Below are positions 1-30,063 of a DNA stretch of 33,509 nucleotides, in pieces (position 1 is the first letter of the stretch; every line of letters starts with the position of its first letter). The DNA is taken from IMG/VR virus record IMGVR_UViG_2778261537_000013; one strand, written 5' to 3'. Origin of the DNA: a virus. Its lineage: Duplodnaviria > Heunggongvirae > Uroviricota > Caudoviricetes. The position numbers and the translations under genes were made by a program. The notes beneath the pieces were generated by a model that was not told where the DNA came from, ran no database searches, and worked only from the letters and a program-made list of their open reading frames with translations.

Positions 1-141
1 TTACTGCTTACACTGTAAGAACGCCGCAAACTCCGCTCCCCAGAAGCTCATCCGTATTTCGCACAGTGAACCGTGCAGCATCCAGATGATGAGGATTGCC
101 GTCACGCAGAACGTGATGGCCGTAAGCGATTTTTGCGACAT
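1..141 (-). CDS. Hok/Gef-family type I toxin-like small membrane protein (46 aa)
   Basis: Not in the ORF track (<60 aa). Hand translation of the minus strand from ATG 141..139 to TAA 3..1 gives MSQKSLTAITFCVTAILIIWMLHGSLCEIRMSFWGAEFAAFLQCKQ: an N-terminal hydrophobic helix followed by an LCEIR motif, as in Hok/Gef/RelF toxins. AAGGAG lies 8 nt upstream of the ATG. Confidence 0.5.
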   Translation of the reverse strand: MSQKSLTAITFCVTAILIIWMLHGSLCEIRMSFWGAEFAAFLQCKQ

Positions 142-768: not shown

Positions 769-1593
769 ATGACTGACTTTAAATATCAATCTGATAGTTA
801 TGATAGACAATCACAAAAATTTGTTATTCCGCTCTACATACGAAATGAACTAGGCGATTATAATTATTCATCGACTGGAACGTTTATATATTACAAGCAA
901 TCACACTATGTGGTTTTTGCTGCTCATGCTCTGAGGGATAAAGATGACATCAGAAATATTTACATACTGGGTTCTGATGGTGAATTTTTTGCTTTGACTA
1001 GTATCTCTATAGGACATCGAATTTTTGAAGAAGATGATTTAGTCATTGTCGATTGCTTTAATATGATACTTGATGGGAAAAATTATTTCTCGCTTAAAGA
1101 TAATTTCAATTTTATTGGATTTGATAAGAAACATTTTGCATGGACAGGCTTCCCTAAAAACTGGTGCAAAACACAAACAATTCACAGAACAAAACGCCCT
1201 AGTTCAATAGTAAATCAAACGGTAGCTTCTAACGAAGATGGCCTGTTTTTTAAAAATGCCAAGTATTTCACTATAATATCCGAGGTTAAAACATTCAATA
1301 AAATTGAAATAACAGGAACATACAAGGTTAAGAATATAGATTTAAAATATAAAGGACAGGTAAGTAAAGGCCCTTCTCCAGAGGGAATGAGTGGTGGTGC
1401 AATGTATTTTTTCTCTAAGGGGCAAGAATTAAAAAAAGAACTGGAGTCAACATTTCTTTTGGCTGGAATTGGTTTGTCTTTTAAAAAAGATGGAACAATA
1501 GTGGGAATTAGCCGTTATCGTATGATTGAGCTATTTGAACAGTTTAATGAAGAATCACCTATAGAGTGTTCTCTTCATTTTCAACAAGAATAA
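769..1593 (+). CDS. Cytoplasmic trypsin/chymotrypsin-fold serine protease-like protein (AT-rich cargo)
   Basis: 274-aa ORF with no N-terminal signal peptide. Candidate catalytic triad in canonical order: His in VVFAAHAL, Asp in DDLVIVD, Ser in GPSPEGMSGGAMYF (GDSGG-like). Strongly AT-rich compared with flanking phage genes, on the opposite strand to ogr and D, with its own terminator. Confidence 0.6.
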   Translation: MTDFKYQSDSYDRQSQKFVIPLYIRNELGDYNYSSTGTFIYYKQSHYVVFAAHALRDKDDIRNIYILGSDGEFFALTSISIGHRIFEEDDLVIVDCFNMILDGKNYFSLKDNFNFIGFDKKHFAWTGFPKNWCKTQTIHRTKRPSSIVNQTVASNEDGLFFKNAKYFTIISEVKTFNKIEITGTYKVKNIDLKYKGQVSKGPSPEGMSGGAMYFFSKGQELKKELESTFLLAGIGLSFKKDGTIVGISRYRMIELFEQFNEESPIECSLHFQQE

Positions 1594-3073: not shown

Positions 3074-4258
3074 ATGAGTGAAACTCGTTTTCATGGTGCC
3101 CGTGTTACGGAAAGTACCGACCTGGTAACAGCGATTAATGATGTTGATTCCAGTGTTATCGGTATCGTGGCAACGGCGGATGATGCGGACGCGGAGCTGT
3201 TCCCGCTGAACAAGCCCACACTGCTGACCCGCGTCAATGACGTGCTGGGAAAATGCGGGACAACGGGGACGCTTTATCGTGCGCTTAAGGCTATCGCAGA
3301 CCAGGTGAGCACAAAGGTGATCGTCGTTCGCGTGGCTGAACACAAAGAAGAAGACGGAAAGACACAGGATCAACTGGTTATCGGTGGTTCTGAATCTGAC
3401 GGCAGCTATACGGGGATGTATGCGCTGCTTGTTGCAGAGCAGGATGAAAGCATCGGATACCGTCCGCGTATTCTGGCTGCGCCGGAGCTGGACACGGAGG
3501 CGGTAACAAAATCCCTGTGCGTGATTGCGGGTAAACTGCGCGCGTTTGTGTATGCCTCATGTCACGGCTGTAACACGATGGCTGAGGTGATTACCTACCG
3601 CCAGAAATTCAACGAACGTGAGGTGATGCTCTTATGGCCGGACTTCATCGCCTACAACCCGAAAAGTGGTAAAAACGAAACGTTCCCCGCGCCTGCCTAT
3701 GCGTGCGGCCTTCGTGCGTACATTGACCATGAGCAGGGATGGCACAAATCACTGTCCAACGTTCCGGTTAAAAATGTGCTGGGGATGTCGAGGCATGTTT
3801 TCTGGTCGTTGCAGGCCGAAGACAGTGATGCCAACAGCCTTAACAACAAAGAAATCACGACCATTATTCGTCGCAACGGGTTCCGCTTCTGGGGCAACCG
3901 CACACCGGAAACGAACGCCTACATCTTTGAGGTGTATACCCGAACCGCACAGGTGCTGGCTGATTCAATTGCGGAAGCGCAGTTTGAAACCATCGACAGT
4001 CCACTGACACCTGCGAACGTGAAGGATGTTATCAGTGCCATCAGGGCAAAACTGGATTCACTGGTTACTGCCGGGAGACTGATTGGCGCGGAGTGCTGGT
4101 ATGACGTGGTGGATAACAGCACCACGGATTTACGTCAGGGGCGTGTGCGTATTCGCTACAAATATACGCCCGTTCCGCCACTGGAAGACATGGAGCTTTA
4201 CCAGACGTTTACTGATGAATACTTTGAACCCGCATTTGCGGCGCTGGGAGGTGCCTGA
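3074..4258 (+). CDS. FI: Contractile tail sheath protein gpFI
   Basis: 394 aa with P2 FI-like motifs (FPLNKP, GKLRAF, WPDF, HEQGWHKSLSNV, IRRNGFRFWGNRT, YTRTAQV, YTPVPPLE). Confidence 0.92.
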   Translation: MSETRFHGARVTESTDLVTAINDVDSSVIGIVATADDADAELFPLNKPTLLTRVNDVLGKCGTTGTLYRALKAIADQVSTKVIVVRVAEHKEEDGKTQDQLVIGGSESDGSYTGMYALLVAEQDESIGYRPRILAAPELDTEAVTKSLCVIAGKLRAFVYASCHGCNTMAEVITYRQKFNEREVMLLWPDFIAYNPKSGKNETFPAPAYACGLRAYIDHEQGWHKSLSNVPVKNVLGMSRHVFWSLQAEDSDANSLNNKEITTIIRRNGFRFWGNRTPETNAYIFEVYTRTAQVLADSIAEAQFETIDSPLTPANVKDVISAIRAKLDSLVTAGRLIGAECWYDVVDNSTTDLRQGRVRIRYKYTPVPPLEDMELYQTFTDEYFEPAFAALGGA

Positions 4259-8702: not shown

Positions 8703-8805
8703 ATGTCCTTCTCAGAAAATTGTTTTTGAATAACAAATAACAGGATTTTATAATCTCTTAACCTTATAACATGTGTGGTCTGAAATAATAATTAAGGAGA
8801 TTATC

Positions 8806-9378
8806 GTGCTGTCTTACTTAATGGCAATTCACTTTGTTTTATTTGGGAACTCTACTAATTTAAAAAACTTCTGGAAATATGAAGTAATTCGGCGGAAACG
8901 TATGGATATCTGGAGGCTTTTAAGAGAGAAAAAACAGCGTAACCGGAATTTCCTTTTCTGGTGGCGGTTGGCTAACGAAATGTATATTAATGGTAATAAA
9001 TCACATAAGAAAGCAGCCAAAAAGTTAAACAGTAAAATAATTAACAAATTTGGTTGCGAAATTGGATTGGGCGCAAATATTGGAAAAGGGTTAACAATTC
9101 CCCATCATGCTGGAATTGTTGTTCATTTTGCTGTTGATGCTGGTGAAAATCTGGTGTTACGACAGAATACGACCATTGGACAGATAGATGGTGACATACC
9201 TGGTTCAAGAGTAAAAATTGGTAGCAACGTTGATATCGGAGCTAATTGTTGCATCATTGGATTATCACGTAAAATTGGGGATAATGTAAAAATAGGTGCA
9301 ATGTCTTTTATAAATAAAGATATACCATCGAACTGCACATATATAACTAAAAAGAGCGGTGTTGTATTGTATAAATAG
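8806..9378 (+). CDS. Hexapeptide-repeat (left-handed beta-helix) acetyltransferase, CysE/WcaB/NodL-like (AT-rich cargo at the Z/fun position)
   Basis: C-terminal half is built of hexapeptide repeats (IGANIGKGLTI, IGSNVDIGANCCIIG, IGDNVKIGAMSFI). GTG start at 8806 is preceded by AAGGAGA; the ORF-track frame opens at 8773. Visibly AT-rich; lies between U and G on the strand opposite to G. Confidence 0.65.
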   Translation: MLSYLMAIHFVLFGNSTNLKNFWKYEVIRRKRMDIWRLLREKKQRNRNFLFWWRLANEMYINGNKSHKKAAKKLNSKIINKFGCEIGLGANIGKGLTIPHHAGIVVHFAVDAGENLVLRQNTTIGQIDGDIPGSRVKIGSNVDIGANCCIIGLSRKIGDNVKIGAMSFINKDIPSNCTYITKKSGVVLYK

Positions 9379-10000: not shown

Positions 10001-12132
10001 TATGCAAGCCTCACAATATAGTTAAATGCGATGTTTTTTACGGTGTTTTCTGCGTTCCCCGTAGCATTAACGGTGATGGTGTGTCCGTGGGGACCAATAA
10101 TGACAGAATGGGCATGAGCACCAATGCCGATAGTGTGGTTATGGGCACCGATATATACATTGTGAGCATGCCCTCCTGCGCTCGACGTGGTACCAGTACC
10201 TAACGCAGCGTTATAACCGGCTGATACACCATTCCCCGCGCCAGTGTGACCAACAGGTATATTGTGTGAATGAGCTCCTGCGCTATTTGTGGTTTTTGTG
10301 CCGTAATCAAATGAACTGGTCGTTTTAGTACCGTAATCAAACGACGATGTGGTTTTCGTCCCCAAATCAGTACTGGATGCGCTGGCGCTGTGGGTGTGCG
10401 ATTTAATGCCGTCCTGTTCCTGAGACAATACGGCACGACCACTGGCAGGTTTGCCCTTGATAGTCCAGCCACGCATATCAGGGATCACGCCTGACGGATA
10501 AGCGACTGCAAGTTTCGGGTATGCAGATTTGTCAAAAGTCTGCCCCTGCATCAGGGTATAACCAGACGGAACGGTATCTGATGGCCACGGAATCGGTGCA
10601 CCGACTGGATAAAACTCTTCAGGAGGATGAGCCGAGGTGTAAAGCTGCGCCCACGGCGACCAGTTTGCGTCGGTCGTATCCCGTCGTGAACGAATAAATG
10701 CCGGAGCATGAGCACCGCTTATACCACTCCAGCCGATGAGTAATTCGCCTTCGCCAACGGCTGTCATCCCTTTCAGGTGAATGATATTTCCATACGCTGT
10801 TGGATATCCGTTGTTATACGCCTCGTATAACTCCAGACCTGTGGCCCCCTGCATATTATCTGTCAGGGCGGTCACCCGACCTTTTGAAGCCAGATTAACT
10901 GACGATACTGCTGTCCCATCTGACGGTAACGCCCCGATCTCTGATGCTGTTGGCTTATTCCTGGAGTTATAGTCCCTTCGCCAGCCAGGAGCATAAGCAT
11001 CACCATGATTAATATAAGTAAATTGAGCATTAGGGATGCCTTCACCGCTGGATGTACTCGGTGTGGTAATGCGTATGGTCATTGCGCCGCGGGTGCCAAT
11101 AACTTCCACAACAGCACCTGCAAGACAAATATTTCCGCAACCTGTATCTGTAATGACCTTATTACTTGCATAAGCCCATGAGCCTTTGCACATCCAGTAA
11201 GGATGGTTAAATGCCCCCTGACTCTCTAGCCAAAAAATCAACTGCGCAGTTGTCCATGCTTCACTATCTCCACCAATATTCAGCTCTGCACTATATGCAC
11301 GGCAGGCACCGATATTTTTCGTAAAGGTGTCTTTGTCAGAGATATCCTCACCATTCTTAGCTTTCTGCAGACGTTTTTCAGCATTGTCATAGGCAGCTTT
11401 TACTGCATTTGATGTTGCCGCCAGCGTTTCAGACGTGCTGTTGGTTGCACTGCTGAGCTGGACTATCCCTTTTTGTGCCGTAGTGGCGTCCTGAGCGGTA
11501 TATTTTCCGTTAGCCATGTCATACGCTGCCTTAACCGCTTTCGGCGTTGCAGCCAGCGTTTCAGAATCGCTGTTAGTGGCGCTACTGAGTTGAACAAAGC
11601 CTTTTGCGGTCAGCGAGGCGTCCGGGTGACGTCGTGACTGTTCATGTTCTTTCAGTTTGTCATTCACGTAATCCACTGTGGCCATAACCATGGTGTTATC
11701 CACGGTAAGCGCCACGGTGGCAGTGCTGGATACGGTCAGAATGGTGCGAAATGTTTGTGCACGTCCGGATCCTTCGGCAACGGTTGGCTTGTAACTTTCG
11801 GCAGTATTGCCCACCGCGATCAAATCGCCGTGCTCATCAAATACACCAATTTCCCGGATCCAGAATCCGCCCGTTTCAGGAGGAATAACCAGCTCCGCAA
11901 TAATGCGGTTCTGATGTGTTGCGTCCAGGATGACGCGATTAACAGTATGTCGCCACACCTCATGCACCAGACGGGTCTGCTTACTGTCTGGTGTGGGCAA
12001 CGTGCCGCCACCGTCGCCCACGGCCATGTGAGTCAGGCGGACAGGATTACCATCTGGCGCGGCTGCCTGAGCTAATTTTTTGGCACCAGTATCAGTGATA
12101 ATGGTTTTAAATTTTCGTGTTGTGGTACTCAT
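10000..12132 (-). CDS. H: Tail fiber protein gpH
   Basis: 710 aa; N-terminus [23 protein letters not shown]... is P2 H-like. Internal duplicated motif ([23 protein letters not shown] twice) and a C-terminal tip with [10 protein letters not shown] tandem repeats and His-X-His repeats. Confidence 0.88.
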
Positions 12133-23341: not shown

Positions 23342-23366
23342 CGCGCTTCGCTTGTCTGCTGCTTCG

Positions 23367-23393
23367 CCGGGGCATAAAAAATTTATGCCCCGG
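23367..23393. other. Strong stem-loop downstream of Q (12-bp stem, no clear U-tract)
   Basis: ccggggcataaa / tttatgccccgg with a 3-nt loop. Could be a transcript 3' end structure or part of the cos-proximal region. Confidence 0.45.
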
Positions 23394-23764
23394 CTCTCCA
23401 GCTCCTGTATCAGTCAGATAATTTCACGACGCTTTCCTGCTTATTGCCATCATCGACGGTCAGACTCTTACGCAATCCCACCGCGTTAACTGCATGTTCT
23501 CGCCGCCTCAGTGCGATTTTGACGGCCTTACCTTTCACCCCATCAAATCAAAAGCCCTCACGTCTTTTTCACGCTCAGCGTGAGAAATACAGCCATTCTG
23601 TTGTGTTGCTGCGACATCGTTCAGGGGATGCTATTTACCCCCTGAAACGCGGGCTGTTCCCCCGTCACCTGCGCGCAGAAAAAACGCGTTTTTTTGTGCA
23701 CGCACGGATCCTTGACGGATCCAGCCGCCATGCGGGCCGGAAGGGTAAAAAGTCGTTCAAAAAA

Positions 23765-23825: not shown

Positions 23826-24233
23826 TTATCTTTTATAGCCTTGCCCCTTCCTGGCCAGCGCCCTGATGGCCGGGCGTGCCAACACCATATTTTGGCAATG
23901 ATGAATTGCCCGGCAAAATTCATCTCTACCCATTGGATGCTCAACTGGCAATGTTAAATACAGGTTCCATGCGTCGCCTAAAAGTTGGGCTATCTTTTGT
24001 TCTTCAGATGTCAGCAAGCAAGCGGTATCCGTAAAATAATCATACTTTTCATGTATGTTATTTAACGGTTTTGTCTGTAGTGCAGCCTGAGCTATACGGT
24101 ATGCCTGAAGCATACGGGCGTCGTTGATATCCATTCCGAACGGAATTTCTGATGATTGTGACTCTGCATCTTCAAGCCTGGCAATTTCTTTACGTAAGAA
24201 GTATTTCAACTCTTGTTTCTGTTTCCTGTTCAT
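23826..24233 (-). CDS. Hypothetical protein (135 aa), AT-rich accessory gene beside the cos-proximal region
   Basis: Intact ORF with charged N-terminal half; no family recognised. Downstream of parR, separated from it by a hairpin. Confidence 0.5.
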   Translation of the reverse strand: MNRKQKQELKYFLRKEIARLEDAESQSSEIPFGMDINDARMLQAYRIAQAALQTKPLNNIHEKYDYFTDTACLLTSEEQKIAQLLGDAWNLYLTLPVEHPMGRDEFCRAIHHCQNMVLARPAIRALARKGQGYKR

Positions 24234-24303
24234 GCTTTTTTTCCTTTTTCTCTGTCAATGTGTTGCATTGTGTCCCCCTTGTTTATGTTCCCGGATTAAA
24301 GTC

Positions 24304-24325
24304 ATCAGGGCGGATGCGCCCTGAT
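24304..24325 (-). terminator. Candidate terminator hairpin after parR
   Basis: 9-bp stem atcagggcg / cgccctgat with a 4-nt loop, immediately 3' of the parR stop on the minus strand. The U-tract is weak. Confidence 0.4.
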
Positions 24326-24331
24326 GTTGTG

Positions 24332-24640
24332 TTATTCGGGAAATAACGCCCGGATATTCCCGGCCATCTGGCTGGTTATCTGTGTGGTTGGTACTGGTTG
24401 TGGCGCGTTCTGTTCTACTCTGTTTTGTACCACGGCCAACTCATCGTCAGCCCATGCAGCCAGTCGGTAAGCCTCTGCCGGATTCATTTTCAGAAGTGCC
24501 AGCCCGGCCAGAAAAGCCACGCGTTGGCCGCTTTTGCGGGCTTCTGGTGTAAGGCTGTCCAGCCAGGCGCATGCTTCGCCTTCGTTCTTGACGGCGGCGG
24601 GCTTCAGATAGAAACTTATCCGTCTGGTTGGTGTCGTCAT
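24332..24640 (-). CDS. parR: ParR-like partition adaptor (centromere-binding protein)
   Basis: 102 aa from ATG 24640 (preceded by AAGGAG, 5 nt after the parM stop). RRISFYLKPAAV...LDSLTPEARKSGQRVAFLAGLAL...NIRALFPE parallels recalled plasmid R1 ParR (RRTIAFKLNPDV...LDSIP.GERS...ALTAGLAL...LRSLFP). Confidence 0.65.
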   Translation of the reverse strand: MTTPTRRISFYLKPAAVKNEGEACAWLDSLTPEARKSGQRVAFLAGLALLKMNPAEAYRLAAWADDELAVVQNRVEQNAPQPVPTTQITSQMAGNIRALFPE

Positions 24641-24644
24641 TGGT

Positions 24645-25604
24645 TTACTCCTTGTCCATTGCGTACAGCCCATTAACCAGAGCAAACTGTGGCACCCCGT
24701 CCGCGATGAAAGTCGCATTAACTCCGCAGGCTTCGCGGATAGCGGGTGCCACAATCTCCGCCCCTCCACCGACAACCATCACCCGCCCGTAACCCGAAAA
24801 AACCGCCAGCGCGCGGATCACGCGTTGTTTCAGTGTTTCTTCCTTTTCACGAATAACCGCCATCAGGCTGGCGTAATGCGCGTCATTGTGGATGTGCTGG
24901 CGCAGCCAGGCTTCATCATGGCGATGTTCGATAATGGTATTGGCGATGTGGTGACTGGTGCGCATACCGTTAGTGGCCATCACCGACAGTACGGCATCGG
25001 CCATCAGAGAAACGCCTACGTGTGGATCGCAAAACACCTGGCTGATACCTGCCAGTTGCCCCTGAACCTTTGCCACATCCAGCGTGGTTCCGCCCAAATC
25101 CACAATCAGCAGGGATTCAAACGGACTCATGTCAGCCAGTGCCTTAAAGCCAGCCGGAATGGATTCAGGCATAACCCGCACGTTACGGATAGTGAATGCT
25201 TCGCCGTTCTGGTACTCCACCGGGCGCATAACGTTCGCTTTTTTGCGGTTGATGTTGGCCATGTCCGGCTGTGCGTTTGTGTCGAAATACTCGCTCAGTG
25301 GCAGGGTGACAACCACATCCACCTCCTGTGGCGTGATGCCTGATTTGACCAGCGCGTGATGAATGGCAATGACATTCACATCGCTGTATTGGTATTGCGT
25401 GTCGGTTGTCTGGACAAAGCGATCGCTGACCGGATCAAAACCATAGCGCACGCCATCAAGCATGTAGTTCGCGGGCTGCATGCCACCGAACGGCGCAGAC
25501 CATTCCGACTTGAAGCTGTTCGGGCTGATGGCGTTGCGGCGTTCGCCGTTCTCAGTCCATGCCAGCTTGATGTTGGTGGAGCCGTCGTCGATACAAATTT
25601 TCAT
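24645..25604 (-). CDS. parM: ParM/StbA-family actin-like segregation ATPase
   Basis: 319 aa with ParM hallmark motifs in order: MKICIDDGSTNIKLAW, SPNSF, YSDVNVIAIHHAL, VMPESIPAG, LIVDLGGTTLD, GVSL, VMVVGGGAEI, LVNGLY. Confidence 0.85.
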   Translation of the reverse strand: MKICIDDGSTNIKLAWTENGERRNAISPNSFKSEWSAPFGGMQPANYMLDGVRYGFDPVSDRFVQTTDTQYQYSDVNVIAIHHALVKSGITPQEVDVVVTLPLSEYFDTNAQPDMANINRKKANVMRPVEYQNGEAFTIRNVRVMPESIPAGFKALADMSPFESLLIVDLGGTTLDVAKVQGQLAGISQVFCDPHVGVSLMADAVLSVMATNGMRTSHHIANTIIEHRHDEAWLRQHIHNDAHYASLMAVIREKEETLKQRVIRALAVFSGYGRVMVVGGGAEIVAPAIREACGVNATFIADGVPQFALVNGLYAMDKE

Positions 25605-25636
25605 GTCGCTTTTCCTTATGTTGATTAATTAATCGG

Positions 25637-25747
25637 TTACGGGATTCTGAAATCCCGTTTTTGTCTGTTTTGTGCGCGCTTCATATATCACTGCGCGTTT
25701 TTTGCTCATTTACGGGATTCGTGAGTCCCGTTTCTGTCTGTTTTTTG
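25637..25747. repeat. Two ~38-bp direct repeats, each with a GGGATT/AATCCC-type dyad, upstream of parM (candidate parC-like site)
   Basis: ttacgggattctgaaatcccgtttttgtctgttttgtg (25637..25674) and ttacgggattcgtgagtcccgtttctgtctgttttttg (25710..25747), roughly 33 of 38 identical. The second copy lies inside the 3' end of the A reading frame. Confidence 0.5.
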
Positions 25748-28503
25748 TTTCCGCTGGTCAGGCCACCCCGCAGCAGGTCTGCTTTGCGGCGGGCGCGTTC
25801 AGTGGTTTCACTGATTCTCTGTGCGTGCTCTGCGTCGCGGATGGCGCGCAGCATGTCAGAAAGCACGGTAACGGGTGTTTTCATGGTGTTCTGGTCCTGC
25901 TGAAGTGTGGATGCCAGGCGTGCGGCGGCTTCAGGGTCTGATGCCCCCAGCTGTGCTAGATAGTTGGCGACCGGGTTATGGCGGATCTCCGTGCTGCTTA
26001 CGCCGTGATTACGGCTCAGGCGCTGCCAGAGCTGCGTGATTTGGCTGTCCGGGCGGGTATCCGGTTTGCGTACAATTTCAAATCCCTGCGGTGCAATGAT
26101 GCTGCCGTCAACGTACAGACTGCCGCCCCGTAACAGGTGCTGCATCTGTTGTTCACCGATATGCAGGCCGAGAGATTCAGCAGACTCCCGCCATTCTTTA
26201 GCGAGTAACTCGTGGTTATCAGGCAAAGGTCGCGGCTGTTTGCGGCTCTGTGTCCAGTTCTGCATTTCATCACTGTTGTTTTTTGCCTGTTTGTCACGCA
26301 GCGAACGCATCAGCGCCCGGCGTTCGTGCCGTTTCAGTGAGTGCAGCCATTCGTTCACTTCAACACCGTCAGGGATCTGCGGCCACGGTGCTGGCCGTTC
26401 TTCCGGCTGTTCTGTCCCGTTGTTGTCCGTTTCCTGTACACGGGGACAGTTATTGCCACGAGTCCAAGGGGCGGCAGGGCCGCCCTGAAGGTCAAAACCA
26501 TTTTCGCGGGCGCTGTCTTCCGCTTCCGGTTTGCGTCTTACCAGCTTCCAGTTATCCGGATGCGTGCACACACGGGAGGATTCCCCGATGAGTGGTGACC
26601 AGATCCCGTAAATCTGTACACTCTGCTCGCCGTAATCGTTCAGTTCATCTGCGAGGTCGTAGGCGGTGCGAATCAGGTAGTCCTTGCGTGGAACAAGCAC
26701 GCCACCCTGTTTTTCAATGTAGGTGGCAAAACACCCGGCATCAGCGGCAGCGAGTACCGCATCCATTGCGTCATCCTTCAGGCGTTGCGGGCCTTCCGGG
26801 TTGCGTGCCATCTGGCTGGCAAGGCGACGCAGTTCACGCCACACCTGACGGGAGGGGATACCAAAGAACTGGAACTGGCGGACGCGGTGAAGGCGCGCCC
26901 AGCCGATGGCGCGTTCCACGCTCTCGGCCATTGATTTTCCGGTTTCGTGGTCAACGCGTGGTTTGCCCGTTTTCGGGTCGATGCCATCCACGGCGCGGCT
27001 GTCCAGGTTCTTTCCGATGTAGGTGGCGATGTAGCTGGTTGGCGTGCCTTTTGAGCCGTCTACGTACTCCGCCTTAAAACGAGGAGTTATGTCATCGCCC
27101 AGCTCGTGGCGGTCTTCCTGAATGGCAATATCGCAGACGTGGGACACGATGGTTTCAATCTCGTCCGGATGTGCAAAGACCATCATATGCCAGTGCACGG
27201 TGCCGTCATGGTGAGGCTCCACCGTGCGGATGCCATACCAGCGAAGACCGTCGCGGTTCAGTTTTTTGCGGACCGCCGCAAAAAACATGTTAACCAGGTA
27301 ATCGCTGGAGTCGCGCATGGTGGCCCCGTTCCATTTGGGGTTCGGATGACCGTTCTCCGTTGTTGCGTGGTATTTTGACGGGCAGGTGACAGTCAGAAAC
27401 ACCGCTCTGTCGCCACGGGCTTCGGCCAGAAGTTCCAGCCCCTTCATGGTGGCCATCATTTCTGCTTTACGGTGGACCGGGTTACTTACTCCCGCGTAAT
27501 ACACCGTCTCGAGATCAATCGTGAACCCGTCTTCATTTTCCAGCATGAAACTTTTCAGGAAATCGCGTGTTTTCTCACGCTGTGCGCGAAACTCGCTTAA
27601 CGCGTCCTGGCTCAGATAGGGCGATGTTTTTCTGGAAACCAGACAGGCGGCGCGGAGTTGTTCTTCTCTCCACTCGCAACGTAACAGCCACAGTTTGCGT
27701 TTCCACCATTCCGCACAGGTCAGGCGAAGGATTGCGCCCGGCAGCAGCTCCGTGTCCGGTTCGTTCCTCCGGTCTTTGTCTGTTGTCAGAGCGTCATAAT
27801 GTGGAGGCATAGCGTGCAGGTGTAACGCCATGCGGGCTAGCATCTGATACGCCTTCAGTGTTACATCCATGGTCAGCTCGCCATCAGTCGCGCCAAAGCC
27901 ATCGCAGAGCTTTTCGAAGGTGCTGCTGAACATCGCCGCCGTCATGGTGGCCAGCGTCTGTATCTGGTGTTTGTTGAGCTGCGGCAGGTAAAGCAAATCG
28001 TCCAGGCGTTCGCGTCCGGCAAGGGAGCGATAACCCGGTGTCAGCCAGCGTCCGTCAGTGCGATCCAGACGTTCGAATATTTTGCGCAGGGTTCCGCGTG
28101 CATAGCGTTCCGCCTGCCAGCTCTTTTTGCCTTTCCGGCGATCGGCTTCCTGTTTTTTGCGAAGGAAGGAGAGGTGGCGAATAAGCGGATCGCGCAGATA
28201 GGACGGCAGCAGGCGCAGCGAGGCCATGGCTTCATCCACCGCGCCGCGTGCCTGTTTTCTGGCGTCTCCTGCCAGTGTGATGGTTTTGTCCTGTTTTTCC
28301 TGTGCGTCCAGGCTTTTATTAATCAGGTTGCCCAGCGGCGTGGCGGAGAACGCCGCATCAGCCATTTCCTGGCGGCGCTCGTTCTCTGCCCGGTAGGCAT
28401 CCAGCCAGGAGGAAAGTGCGGATTCAGGAGCGGGGATCCCCGTTCCTTCACGCCCCACTGCGTGGCGCGGTTGTTGCCAGTCCCTGATGTACTCTGCCGT
28501 CAT
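25681..28503 (-). CDS. A: Replication initiation protein gpA (rolling-circle type endonuclease)
   Basis: 940-aa ORF in the P2 A position at the end of the early operon. Longer than P2 A (761 aa), so the C-terminal extension is uncertain. Confidence 0.85.
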   Translation of the reverse strand: MTAEYIRDWQQPRHAVGREGTGIPAPESALSSWLDAYRAENERRQEMADAAFSATPLGNLINKSLDAQEKQDKTITLAGDARKQARGAVDEAMASLRLLPSYLRDPLIRHLSFLRKKQEADRRKGKKSWQAERYARGTLRKIFERLDRTDGRWLTPGYRSLAGRERLDDLLYLPQLNKHQIQTLATMTAAMFSSTFEKLCDGFGATDGELTMDVTLKAYQMLARMALHLHAMPPHYDALTTDKDRRNEPDTELLPGAILRLTCAEWWKRKLWLLRCEWREEQLRAACLVSRKTSPYLSQDALSEFRAQREKTRDFLKSFMLENEDGFTIDLETVYYAGVSNPVHRKAEMMATMKGLELLAEARGDRAVFLTVTCPSKYHATTENGHPNPKWNGATMRDSSDYLVNMFFAAVRKKLNRDGLRWYGIRTVEPHHDGTVHWHMMVFAHPDEIETIVSHVCDIAIQEDRHELGDDITPRFKAEYVDGSKGTPTSYIATYIGKNLDSRAVDGIDPKTGKPRVDHETGKSMAESVERAIGWARLHRVRQFQFFGIPSRQVWRELRRLASQMARNPEGPQRLKDDAMDAVLAAADAGCFATYIEKQGGVLVPRKDYLIRTAYDLADELNDYGEQSVQIYGIWSPLIGESSRVCTHPDNWKLVRRKPEAEDSARENGFDLQGGPAAPWTRGNNCPRVQETDNNGTEQPEERPAPWPQIPDGVEVNEWLHSLKRHERRALMRSLRDKQAKNNSDEMQNWTQSRKQPRPLPDNHELLAKEWRESAESLGLHIGEQQMQHLLRGGSLYVDGSIIAPQGFEIVRKPDTRPDSQITQLWQRLSRNHGVSSTEIRHNPVANYLAQLGASDPEAAARLASTLQQDQNTMKTPVTVLSDMLRAIRDAEHAQRISETTERARRKADLLRGGLTSGNKKQTETGLTNPVNEQKTRSDI

Positions 28504-29800: not shown

Positions 29801-30063
29801 GCTCTGGCTTCCTTCAGTAGCTGGTTAAACATGTGAGTAAGTGGATTGCTACACCCGAACGGCATCGGGTTTACGTGGTAAGAAGCCTGGCCTCCTGTTT
29901 TGCGAGCGCGACCACCTGTGCTGCGGTTTGTTCTGATGACTAAGCCGCCGCGCCAAAGTCGGCGTAACTCAGCATTAATGGCTGTGGTTGGGGTATTCAG
30001 TGCTGCGGCGATCTCTCCGCCGCTACACCCCGGATGAGTAGCGATGTAGTCCAGAATGGTCAT
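29797..30063 (-). CDS. Putative winged-helix DNA-binding protein (88 aa)
   Basis: N-terminal TILDYIATHPGCSGGEIAAALNTPTTAINAELRRL resembles a helix-turn-helix/winged-helix recognition unit. Confidence 0.45.
   Translation of the reverse strand: MTILDYIATHPGCSGGEIAAALNTPTTAINAELRRLWRGGLVIRTNRSTGGRARKTGGQASYHVNPMPFGCSNPLTHMFNQLLKEARA

What the first reader, a model, noticed from the sequence alone, without database searches (positions are those of the whole stretch)
24332..25760. Plasmid-type actin-like partition system (ParM + ParR + candidate parC) inside a P2-like phage genome
The ORF at 24645..25604 carries the full motif set of ParM/StbA actin-like segregation ATPases, and the coupled 102-aa ORF resembles plasmid R1 ParR. 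Two 38-bp direct repeats with internal dyads lie upstream of parM. The module sits downstream of A, where P2 carries its accessory exclusion genes tin and old. Type II partition systems belong to low-copy plasmids, so their presence here suggests the element can persist extrachromosomally or that a plasmid stability module has been captured as cargo.
Basis: partly seen in the sequence, partly recalled or inferred. Interest (0 to 1): 0.8.

Follow-up and report, generated by a model that had tools for sequence, protein, structure and literature searches.

The report
ParMRC partition cassette in P88-like prophage
A common P2-like E. coli prophage (phage P88 type) carries a complete, well-conserved plasmid-style actin-like DNA-segregation cassette next to its replication gene; databases already annotate it and a published survey has flagged it, but nobody has tested what it does for an integrating phage.

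Summary
ORF 24645..25604(-) is a full-length ParM: Pfam StbA_N 2.7e-82, ParM C-terminal domain 6.3e-69, and R1 ParM structures at 7.9e-93. The coupled 102-aa ORF 24332..24640(-) is a ParR/StbB protein (PF10784, 5.9e-24). Two 38-nt dyad-bearing repeats lie 54 and 127 nt upstream of parM, and the distal copy sits inside the 3' end of gene A.

The window is a P88-like (Xuanwuvirus) P2-type provirus in integrated gene order. The same module occurs in 1304 of 5426 complete E. coli genomes: 1450 places on chromosomes and 2 on plasmids. RefSeq, GenBank and PHROGs already annotate it. Pfeifer et al. 2021 listed P88 as a putative phage-plasmid because of these genes.

It is not recent cargo:
- The gpA-parM-parR order persists in Plesiomonas, Hafnia and Serratia prophages at 58-62% ParM identity.
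- These ParMs form one clade (86/100 bootstrap).
- parM dN/dS is 0.02-0.13.
- The variable cargo slot lies after parR, not at parMR.

The most likely role is active segregation or positioning of the extrachromosomal, replicating phage circle after infection or excision. The precedents are SXT/R391 SrpMRC and CGP3 AlpAC. A stable plasmid lifestyle is not supported. The finding is already known, and interest is low to moderate.

The parts
24645..25604 (-). parM: actin-like segregation ATPase, 319 aa
   Evidence: Pfam StbA_N 2.7e-82 and ParM C-terminal domain 6.3e-69. R1 ParM structure 1mwk 7.9e-93, residues 2-316. PHROG 691 'partition protein' 3.1e-90. The nucleotide-binding motifs are invariant across 20 homologs: D6 D7 G8 S9 T10 K13, E147, D169 G171 G172 T173 T174, G279-G281. 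dN/dS is 0.02-0.13 against relatives.
24332..24640 (-). parR: centromere-binding adaptor of the StbB/ParR family, 102 aa, translationally coupled to parM
   Evidence: Pfam PF10784 5.9e-24, residues 6-71. PHROG 2515 4.5e-55. In the alignment with R1 and IncI/K ParR, the N-terminal strand motif TRRISFYLKP corresponds to R1 RTIAFKLNP, and the C-terminal tail NIRALFPE corresponds to R1 KKNAMKLIN. dN/dS is 0.20.
25637..25674 (.). Proximal 38-nt repeat with dyad ACGGGATTCTGAAATCCCGT; candidate parC site 1. The dyad starts 54 nt before the parM ATG.
   Evidence: Among 109 IMG/VR contigs holding both the motif and parM, the motif is 54-55 or 126-127 nt upstream of the ATG.
25710..25747 (.). Distal 38-nt repeat with dyad ACGGGATTCGTGAGTCCCGT; candidate parC site 2. 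It lies inside the last codons of gene A.
25675..25709 (-). 35-nt spacer between the repeats, containing the stop codon of gene A. By analogy with R1 parC it could hold a promoter, but none was found.
   Evidence: Sequence. The promoter scan found no sigma-70-like site at its threshold.
25681..28503 (-). Gene A: P2-type rolling-circle replication endonuclease, 940 aa, directly upstream of parM in the same orientation
   Evidence: Pfam Phage_GPA 2.4e-129. 31% identical to P2 gpA over residues 77-744.
26446..26483 (-). Candidate ori, homologous to the P2 ori nick-site region, inside gene A and about 0.7 kb from the repeats
   Evidence: 38 nt, 79% identical to the sequence around the annotated P2 nick site at 29892, E = 3.9e-05 in a pairwise search.
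24303..24326 (.). 10-bp GC-rich hairpin 6 nt after the parR stop; probable end of the A-parM-parR transcription unit
   Evidence: (I11). The scan scores it as terminator-like on the + strand only.
23826..24233 (-). 135-aa ORF in the variable cargo slot between parR and the portal gene; not part of the partition cassette
   Evidence: No significant Pfam hit and no PADLOC hit. Relatives carry other genes in this slot.

Best explanation
This is a complete type II (ParMRC) DNA-segregation cassette. It is a lineage-conserved extension of the early replication operon (...B-A-parM-parR) of P88-like (Xuanwuvirus and related) P2-type temperate phages.

Proposed mechanism. ParR dimers bind through their N-terminal ribbon-helix-helix strand (TRRISFYL) to the two dyad-bearing 38-bp repeats that straddle the stop codon of gene A. 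The ParR C-terminal tail (…NIRALFPE) captures the growing ends of ATP-ParM filaments. Filament elongation between two ParR-bound copies then pushes sister phage circles apart.

When it acts. parMR follows A with a 76-nt gap and no terminator on the coding strand. It is therefore probably expressed with the early genes, when the genome is extrachromosomal and being copied by gpA from an ori about 0.7 kb away. That happens after infection or after excision. The likely benefit is that copies are distributed or positioned in the cell. This would lower loss of the excised or not-yet-integrated element at division, or make replication more efficient.

Shown versus inferred. Shown: the protein family identities, the repeat architecture and its conservation, the synteny, purifying selection and the chromosomal location. 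Inferred: ParR-repeat binding, co-transcription with A, and the biological role. My confidence is about 0.95 for 'real ParMRC-type cassette' and about 0.5 for the stated role.
For: The ParR N-terminal strand and C-terminal tail are conserved with R1 and IncI/K ParR, while the linker varies.

The repeats sit at a similar distance upstream of parM and 72-74 bp apart in E. coli, Salmonella, Plesiomonas and Hafnia. This holds although the intervening DNA has diverged, and although Hafnia has an extra 167-aa ORF between A and parM.

Serratia relatives have a different ParR strand (NRKISFYL) and different palindromes (GCCGTTTAAACGGC), as expected if protein and site co-vary.

E. albertii L006 keeps ParM 100% identical, the repeats and the first 18 ParR residues, while the rest of ParR is only 54% identical.

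The gpA-parM-parR order is found in every ParM homolog of >=58% identity and in none of <=53% identity. That clade has 86/100 bootstrap support.

parM dN/dS is 0.02-0.13.

No terminator-like site lies on the minus strand between A and parM, and a hairpin follows parR.

Induced and plaque-forming phages carry the module: P88, phiSM, PhiR44_2, Chuche.

Precedents exist. SXT/R391 SrpMRC stabilises the excised ICE (PMC4489591). CGP3 AlpAC is an actin-like system needed for efficient prophage DNA replication (PMC4446434).
Against: There is no experimental or expression evidence for this phage.

Only two repeat units are present, against ten 11-bp iterons in R1 parC, and they share no sequence with R1 parC. 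Whether they can build a filament-capping complex is therefore open.

No promoter was detected between or beside the repeats.

On the + strand the repeats score as terminator-like hairpins.

One provirus (L184) has a natural parM-parR deletion, so the cassette is not needed for mere persistence as a prophage.

P2 and 186 do without it.
Confidence: 0.55

Rival explanations
1. Facultative phage-plasmid. The phage can be inherited for many generations as a low-copy circular episome as well as integrated, and ParMRC (with hok at the other end of the genome) is its plasmid-maintenance equipment.
For: Pfeifer et al. 2021 placed P88 among putative phage-plasmids and suggested episomal and integrative states. 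A 34,461-bp circular record deposited as plasmid pZ1323PEC0009-2 is a whole P88-like genome. A 100% identical phage is integrated in a sister isolate. The window also carries a Hok/Gef toxin gene (PF01848, 4.1e-07). The P2-like Burkholderia phage KS14 is a proven plasmid prophage (PMC3091744).
Against: 1450 of 1452 occurrences in complete E. coli genomes are chromosomal. The attP junction of the circular record is never contiguous in the 442 genomes that match it. That record is cut exactly at the att junction, as expected when an assembler pops out excised or induced DNA. The only replication initiator found is the rolling-circle gpA of the repressor-controlled lytic operon. No plasmid Rep domain was found among the early-region ORFs tested, whereas KS14 has RepB plus ParA. 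An integrase, a C-type repressor and cox are all present (L066).
Confidence: 0.15
2. Function in the lysogen acting on other DNA. ParR and the parC-like sites, expressed from the integrated prophage, interfere with partition of incoming relatives or plasmids that share the system (partition incompatibility used as exclusion), or they affect segregation of the host chromosome region.
For: The gene position next to the accessory slot is where P2 keeps its lysogenic-conversion genes tin and old. The phage ParM clade is sister to the IncI/K-type plasmid ParMs, and the ParR tails are similar: NIRALFPE against NIKNLFPDDE. The module is present in 24% of E. coli genomes.
Against: No own promoter was detected. 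There is no match in PADLOC defence models. ParM is only 46-52% identical to any plasmid ParM, and the R1 and IncI/K upstream regions share no repeat with the phage, so cross-recognition is unlikely. The fixed linkage to gpA rather than to the variable slot argues for a replication-linked role.
Confidence: 0.1
3. The two repeats are not a centromere. They are tandem intrinsic terminators for + strand (antisense) transcription, or part of the gpA origin, and the real ParR site is elsewhere or absent.
For: Both copies are called terminator-like on the + strand: an 8-bp stem followed by a T-rich tail. The distal copy overlaps gene A.
Against: A homolog of the P2 ori nick region lies elsewhere, at 26446-26483. 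No + strand gene ends nearby, and the Q gene has its own 13-bp hairpin at 23366-23394. In Plesiomonas and Hafnia only the outer GGG/CCC half-sites and the spacing are kept, not a stable stem. That pattern fits a protein-binding dyad rather than an RNA hairpin. In Hafnia the sites follow parM, not the end of A.
Confidence: 0.12
4. Decaying passenger: a plasmid module that was picked up once and no longer does anything.
For: Many truncated ParM clusters exist in the protein collection. One provirus has a parM-parR deletion. A frameshifted copy sits on an Apirhabdus plasmid.
Against: dN/dS is 0.02-0.13 at dS up to 0.2. All catalytic motifs are intact. The gene order is retained across four genera. 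Thousands of full-length, near-identical copies exist.
Confidence: 0.03

Closest known systems
ParMRC (parA/stb locus) of plasmid R1/R100, the type II partition prototype
   Same: The gene order is the same: cis site, then parM, then parR. ParM is 47% identical over its full length to the solved R1 protein. ParR belongs to the same Pfam family, with a matching N-terminal strand and C-terminal tail. Repeats lie immediately upstream of parM on both sides of a roughly 35-40-bp spacer.
   Different: The carrier is an integrating P2-like phage, not a low-copy plasmid. The cis site is two 38-bp units with 20-bp dyads instead of 2 x 5 A/C-rich 11-bp iterons. No promoter was found in the spacer. The distal unit overlaps the coding end of the replication gene.
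Escherichia phage P88 and other Xuanwuvirus members (phiSM, P884B11, 520873)
   Same: The DNA is 94-96% identical across the module. ParM is 95.3% identical in phage 503458 and 97.8-99.7% in the other records. RefSeq and GenBank already annotate the genes as 'plasmid segregation protein ParM' and 'partition protein'. Pfeifer et al. 2021 flagged P88 as a putative phage-plasmid.
   Different: Only the cargo ORF after parR, the integrase type and tail-fibre parts differ.
SrpMRC of SXT/R391 integrative conjugative elements
   Same: It is a type II partition system on an element that normally sits in the chromosome. It is expressed only with the excision and replication functions, and it was shown to stabilise the excised circle and a test plasmid (PMC4489591). 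R391 also carries a toxin-antitoxin system (hipA), as this phage carries hok.
   Different: It belongs to a distant ParM branch. SrpR has no recognisable ParR domain. The element is an ICE that replicates from oriT with a relaxase, not a phage.
AlpAC/alpS of Corynebacterium glutamicum prophage CGP3
   Same: A prophage-encoded actin-like filament protein works with a DNA-binding adaptor and cognate sites, and it is required for efficient phage DNA replication and transport after induction (PMC4446434, PMC5539076).
   Different: AlpC is a distant actin-like protein rather than a StbA/ParM family member of the R1 type. The host is Gram-positive and the phage is unrelated.
Plasmid prophages with partition systems: P2-like Burkholderia phage KS14 (ParA + RepB) and P1-like phage D6 (StbA-type ParM)
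   Same: KS14 shows that a P2-type virion module can be combined with plasmid maintenance. D6 carries a ParM 47.8% identical to this one.
   Different: Both have plasmid replicons and live as plasmids. The present phage keeps gpA rolling-circle replication, an integrase and chromosomal residence.

Membership tests
ParM/StbA actin-like partition ATPase (type II) | Two-domain actin fold recognised by the StbA_N and ParM C-terminal profiles over the whole protein | tested here: met
   PF06406 274.9 bits (cut-off 24.6) and PF21523 231.5 bits (cut-off 27.4), together covering residues 1-316.
ParM/StbA actin-like partition ATPase (type II) | Full-length similarity to an experimentally solved ParM | tested here: met
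   R1 ParM 1mwk: 7.9e-93, query residues 2-316 against chain residues 2-318.
ParM/StbA actin-like partition ATPase (type II) | Intact nucleotide-binding and hydrolysis residues: phosphate-1 DDGST, and the Glu and Asp equivalent to R1 E148 and D170. The R1 residue numbers come from my own knowledge of the literature. | tested here: met
   D6 D7 G8 S9 T10 K13, E147, D169 G171 G172 T173 T174 and G279-281 are invariant in a 20-sequence alignment and aligned with R1.
ParM/StbA actin-like partition ATPase (type II) | ATP-dependent, dynamically unstable filaments stabilised by ParR-parC | not testable with these tools
   This needs purified protein (light scattering, TIRF) or live-cell imaging.
ParR/StbB centromere-binding adaptor | Match to the StbB/ParR family profile | tested here: met
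   PF10784 84.1 bits (cut-off 25), residues 6-71.
ParR/StbB centromere-binding adaptor | Small gene immediately downstream of parM and coupled to it | tested here: met
   The parM stop is at 24645-24647 and the parR ATG at 24638-24640, with an AAGGAG just upstream. The arrangement is the same in all relatives.
ParR/StbB centromere-binding adaptor | N-terminal ribbon-helix-helix fold | tested here: inconclusive
   The strand motif RRISFYLKP aligns with R1 RTIAFKLNP. The single-sequence AlphaFold model was poor (mean pLDDT 61.7, residues 1-10 below 50), so it says nothing. No solved ParR was found by sequence.
ParR/StbB centromere-binding adaptor | C-terminal ParM-binding tail | tested here: met
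   The terminal N-x-x-x-L-F-P motif is conserved in all phage and IncI/K ParRs and aligned with the R1 tail KKNAMKLIN. The role of the tail in R1 comes from my own knowledge of the literature. Binding itself was not tested.
parC-type centromere | Repeated ParR sites directly upstream of parM | tested here: met
   Two 38-nt repeats. The dyads and their 72-74-bp spacing are conserved in four genera. ParR binding was not tested.
parC-type centromere | R1-type array of about ten 11-bp iterons | tested here: not met
   There are only two units, with no sequence similarity to the R1-type upstream region in L064.
parC-type centromere | Sites flank or overlap the parMR promoter (autoregulation) | tested here: inconclusive
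   No sigma-70-like site was found in 25605-25760 at the scan threshold. A conserved ATTAATCAA box precedes the Shine-Dalgarno sequence in three genera.
Phage-plasmid (P1, N15, SSU5, KS14 kind) | Resides as an extrachromosomal replicon in lysogens | tested here: not met
   1450 chromosomal places against 2 plasmid places in complete E. coli genomes. The window has the integrated gene order. One circular 34.4-kb record exists.
Phage-plasmid (P1, N15, SSU5, KS14 kind) | Plasmid-type replication initiator for maintenance replication | tested here: not met
   Only Phage_GPA was found. The other early-region ORFs tested show Ash, DUF4761, HTH or nothing. ORFs under 90 aa were not all scanned.
P2-like temperate phage (Peduoviridae, Xuanwuvirus) | P2-type replication, packaging, capsid and regulation genes, and near-identity to classified members | tested here: met
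   gpA, gpD, ogr, integrase and a C-type repressor were found. Portal, terminase and capsid are 93-99% identical to relatives. The DNA is 95-97% identical to Xuanwuvirus records.

The most novel reading that the evidence does not exclude
The ParM spindle may be an integral part of how this widespread group of integrating E. coli phages replicates or establishes itself. One version is that it positions rolling-circle replication products, as an actin-based phage DNA organiser in a model host. Another is that it gives the phage a heritable episomal 'waiting' state between infection or excision and integration, making these phages true integrative phage-plasmids. Either way, about a quarter of E. 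coli genomes would carry a chromosomal, functional centromere-motor pair whose activity is unleashed on induction.
Probability: 0.2. Interest if true: 0.6.

Novelty: already known. Interest (0 to 1): 0.27.

Why it matters
Type II partition systems are textbook plasmid equipment. Finding one fixed next to the replication gene of an integrating phage raises a clear question: what does a DNA-pushing filament do for a virus that lives in the chromosome? The phage is present in about 24% of complete E. coli genomes and has relatives in Salmonella, Citrobacter, Serratia, Hafnia and Plesiomonas. The question is experimentally easy, because P88 is inducible, E. coli genetics is available and R1 ParM assays exist. 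Only two related cases have been studied: SXT/R391 SrpMRC and CGP3 AlpAC. The presence of the genes is not a discovery. They are annotated in RefSeq, GenBank and PHROGs, and the phage-plasmid idea for P88 is already in print. The small additions here are the two-dyad candidate centromere conserved across genera, the monophyly of the gpA-linked ParMs, and the separation of parMR from the variable cargo slot.

Tried and rejected
- **Defence system in the P2 tin/old hotspot:** rejected. ParM, ParR and the 135-aa ORF have no PADLOC match, and parMR is outside the variable slot.
- **Repeats as the gpA origin:** rejected as the nick site. The P2 nick-region homolog lies at 26446-26483.
- **P2 cos sequence:** searching the 19-nt P2 cosR in the window gave no match within 3 mismatches (the sequence was confirmed against the P2 record). 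The cos site was therefore not located.
- **ParR fold:** the single-sequence AlphaFold2 model was too poor to use (pLDDT 61.7), so I ran no fold search. A sequence search of PDB with ParR found nothing meaningful.
- **NCBIfam:** it has no specific model for either protein.
- **'Escherichia phage 500465-2' as a parMR-less comparator:** the record is a truncated prophage fragment fused to host genes (flk, fabB, mnmC), so it could not be used.
- **Promoter search between and beside the repeats:** nothing reached the scan threshold, and hand inspection gave no element conserved across genera.
- **Literature:** searches for a functional study of ParM in P2-like phages found annotation-level mentions only.
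- **Apirhabdus plasmid (L058), ParM 62% identical:** the gene is frameshifted, and I did not pursue it.

Full report
**What is there.** The window carries, on the minus strand, gene A (25681..28503, 940 aa; Pfam Phage_GPA 2.4e-129). It is followed by a 319-aa ORF (24645..25604) and a 102-aa ORF (24332..24640).

The 319-aa protein matches both halves of the ParM family: StbA_N at 2.7e-82 and the ParM C-terminal domain at 6.3e-69. It aligns end to end with the solved R1 ParM (1mwk, 7.9e-93). In an alignment of 20 homologs, all nucleotide-binding positions are invariant: DDGST...K13, E147, D169-x-GGTT and GGGA.

The 102-aa protein matches Pfam PF10784, the StbB/ParR family (5.9e-24). Its ATG lies four bases after the parM stop. 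PHROGs already holds both proteins as 'partition protein' families 691 and 2515. Neither matches PADLOC defence models.

The two 38-nt repeats are at 25637-25674 and 25710-25747. They are 84% identical and 73 nt apart, and each contains a 20-bp dyad. The dyad pattern is found nowhere else in the window at <=1 mismatch. The distal repeat lies within the last codons of A, and the A stop codon sits in the 35-nt spacer between the repeats.

**What the element is.** The window is a P88-like member of the P2 group (genus Xuanwuvirus). The module is 94-96% identical in DNA to phages P88, phiSM, PhiR44_2, Chuche, 520873 and 503458. Their records already call the genes 'plasmid segregation protein ParM' and 'partition protein'.

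The window starts at the stop codon of a hok/gef gene and ends at the stop codon of the integrase. The order is hok-ogr-cargo-D-tail-head-P-Q-[cargo]-parR-parM-A-...-cox-C-int. That is the integrated prophage order trimmed at gene boundaries, not a circular contig.

In 5426 complete E. coli genomes the module occurs in 1304, at 1450 chromosomal and 2 plasmid places.

One PLSDB record is a 34,461-bp circular 'plasmid' consisting of a whole phage of this kind. It is cut exactly at the att junction. That junction is never contiguous in the 442 E. coli genomes that match it. A 100% identical phage is integrated in the chromosome of a sister isolate. This fits assembly of excised or induced DNA at least as well as it fits a stable episome.

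**Not recent cargo.** ParM homologs fall into two groups. All those >=58% identical to the window protein lie directly after a gpA gene in P2-like prophages. These come from Plesiomonas (62%), Hafnia (62%), Serratia (58%), E. albertii and Salmonella. ParR follows, then a variable stretch, then (ogr and) the portal gene.

None of those <=53% identical has gpA or a portal gene within 10 kb. More than 5000 PLSDB plasmids carry such ParMs at <=52% identity. R1-type ParM is 46.5-47% identical and IncI/K-type is 51.7%.

In a neighbour-joining tree the gpA-linked ParMs are monophyletic in 86 of 100 bootstraps. They nest inside the plasmid radiation, next to the IncI/K-type group. Head genes in these relatives are only about 30% identical to the window's, so the A-parM-parR linkage has outlasted much of the rest of the genome.

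parM evolves under strong purifying selection (dN/dS 0.02-0.13 at dS 0.08-0.20), and parR gives 0.20.

The truly variable slot lies between parR and the portal gene:
- a 135-aa ORF in this window;
- four small ORFs in P88;
- DUF4760 plus two others in an ST131 strain;
- HicAB in Serratia;
- an S8 peptidase and an AAA ATPase in another strain.

In P2 the corresponding region holds orf91, tin and old.

**The adaptor and the candidate centromere.** I aligned the phage ParRs with those of an R1-type and an IncI/K-type plasmid. Three regions stand out:
- a conserved N-terminal strand motif: TRRISFYLKP in the window, RTIAFKLNP in R1;
- a conserved helix region;
- a variable linker followed by a conserved C-terminal tail: ...NIRALFPE in the window, ...KKNAMKLIN in R1.

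From what I know of the R1 system, the N-terminus is the ribbon-helix-helix DNA-binding domain and the extreme C-terminus binds ParM. Both functional ends are therefore present.

Upstream of parM, E. coli, Salmonella, Plesiomonas and Hafnia all have two CGGGA-N-(T)CCCG dyads 72-74 bp apart. The proximal one starts 54-61 nt before the ATG, although the DNA between and around them has diverged. In Hafnia an extra 167-aa ORF separates A from parM, and the dyads stay with parM.

Serratia relatives have a different strand motif (NRKISFYL) and different palindromes (GCCGTTTAAACGGC and GCCCCTTAAAGGGC). That is what co-variation of protein and site would look like.

In E. albertii, ParM is 100% identical, and the repeats and the first 18 ParR residues are kept. 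The rest of ParR is only 54% identical.

In IMG/VR, 109 of 120 contigs with the exact dyad have parM with the motif 54-55 or 126-127 nt upstream of the ATG. Five more are cut at a contig end beside gpA. These are close relatives, so this shows linkage by descent only.

The R1-type upstream region is built differently, from A/C-rich 11-bp iterons, and shares no sequence with the phage region. The site is best described as a parC analogue of different design.

**Alternatives for the repeats.** The scan scores both copies as terminator-like on the + strand. However, no + strand gene ends nearby, and Q has its own strong hairpin at 23366-23394. In the distant relatives only the outer half-sites and the spacing are conserved, not a stable stem.

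The repeats are also not the replication origin nick site. The P2 record marks the nick at 29892 inside A. The matching 38-nt block, 79% identical, lies in the window at 26446-26483, about 0.7 kb away.

**How it most likely works.** No terminator-like site lies on the coding strand between A and parM. The gap is 76 nt, and a 10-bp GC-rich hairpin follows parR. I therefore infer that parMR is the tail of the early replication operon, made when the repressor is off. It would act on the free, gpA-replicated circular genome. ParR would bind the two repeat units, ParM filaments would grow between ParR-bound copies, and the copies would be pushed apart.

The likely pay-off is fewer cells that lose the excised or not-yet-integrated genome at division, or better organised replication.

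Two studied precedents support this. SrpMRC of SXT/R391 ICEs is expressed with the excision functions and stabilises the excised circle and a test plasmid (PMC4489591). AlpAC of prophage CGP3 is needed for efficient phage DNA replication (PMC4446434, PMC5539076).

The hok gene at the other end of the prophage fits an element selected against loss. R1 likewise combines parMRC with hok/sok (my own knowledge).

All of this is inference. I found no expression, binding or genetic data for these phages.

**Rivals.**
- **Stable plasmid lifestyle.** The chromosomal location, the integrase, repressor and cox set, and the lack of any plasmid-type Rep among the ORFs tested all argue against it. I give it about 0.15.
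- **Lysogen-expressed interference with plasmids or related phages.** This is possible, but it has no promoter, no defence-model match and no shared centromere to support it.
- **Decaying passenger.** The selection data contradict it. One provirus with a parM-parR deletion shows the cassette is dispensable for mere residence.

**Known or new.** RefSeq's PGAP pipeline annotates the genes in more than a thousand genomes, as do phage GenBank records and PHROGs. [quoted passage not shown] Pfeifer et al. 2021 named P88 among putative phage-plasmids because of its partition genes and noted that it was found integrated (PMC7969092).

What remains open is function. The modest additions here are the conserved two-dyad site, the monophyly and age of the gpA-linked ParM clade, the ParR allele exchange that spares the N-terminal strand, and the placement of parMR outside the variable slot.

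**Verdict.** The ParMRC-type cassette is real and the sequence observation was correct. I score interest at about 0.27.

Noticed in passing
window 1-141 (-): A Hok/Gef family toxin gene (46 aa, PF01848, 4.1e-07) sits at the very start of the window, beside ogr (332-592, -). The prophage therefore carries both kinds of classical R1 stability module, parMRC and hok. The window begins exactly at the hok stop codon and ends exactly at the integrase stop codon, so it was trimmed at gene boundaries.
   Followed up: partly
window 769-1593 (+): A 274-aa ORF lies between ogr and gene D, with no Pfam, PHROG, PADLOC or NCBIfam match. By eye it has AAHAL and GMSGGAMY motifs reminiscent of a trypsin-like serine protease. 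The circular relative carries a DNA methyltransferase and com at the corresponding end, so this is a second variable cargo slot.
   Followed up: partly
window 8773-9378 (+): A 201-aa hexapeptide-repeat transferase-like ORF (weak Hexapep hits, below the Pfam cut-off) lies between gpU and the tail-fibre assembly gene. It is annotated 'transferase' in the relative and may be a lysogenic-conversion gene.
   Followed up: no
window 25681-28503 (-), residues about 745-940 of gpA: This gpA is 940 aa against 761 aa in P2. Only residues 77-744 align with P2 gpA. The extra C-terminal ~200 aa has no domain match, and its last codons overlap the distal repeat. Relatives range from 789 to 907 aa.
   Followed up: partly
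L006 (E. albertii) 10965-11276 and many E. coli genomes (hits covering query 255-1429): A second ParR allele, 54% identical overall, is combined with a 100% identical ParM and near-identical repeats. The exchange point lies after ParR residue 18, so the N-terminal strand is kept.
   Followed up: partly
L184 (IMG/VR provirus) about 4001-4149: A natural in-frame-looking deletion joins ParM residues 1-25 to ParR residues 74-102, with both repeats still present upstream. It was the only such case among the 120 contigs retrieved by the dyad-motif scan.
   Followed up: partly
L058 (Apirhabdus apintestini plasmid CP138907) 9992-11001: A ParM of the phage clade (62% identical) lies on a 44-kb plasmid, split into two ORFs (a frameshifted pseudogene). 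No gpA, portal or capsid gene is within the 15 kb held.
   Followed up: partly
NC_049343.1 (Escherichia phage 500465-2), L067: This RefSeq 'complete phage genome', classified as the type of a genus (Gemsvirus), contains host genes (flk, fabB, mnmC and an MFS transporter) and a fragmented portal gene. It looks like a mis-delimited prophage remnant.
   Followed up: no
L007 (contig labelled Vagococcus sp. WN89Y): A P88-like prophage with ParM 98% identical to the window's sits on a 226-kb contig of a genome labelled as a Gram-positive Vagococcus. This is probably contamination or mislabelling of the assembly.
   Followed up: no
window 25617-25628 (parM sense -30 to -19) and relatives: The palindrome GATTAATTAATC, core ATTAATCAA, lies just upstream of the parM Shine-Dalgarno sequence and is conserved in E. 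coli, Salmonella, Plesiomonas and Hafnia. It could be a -10 element or another protein site.
   Followed up: no
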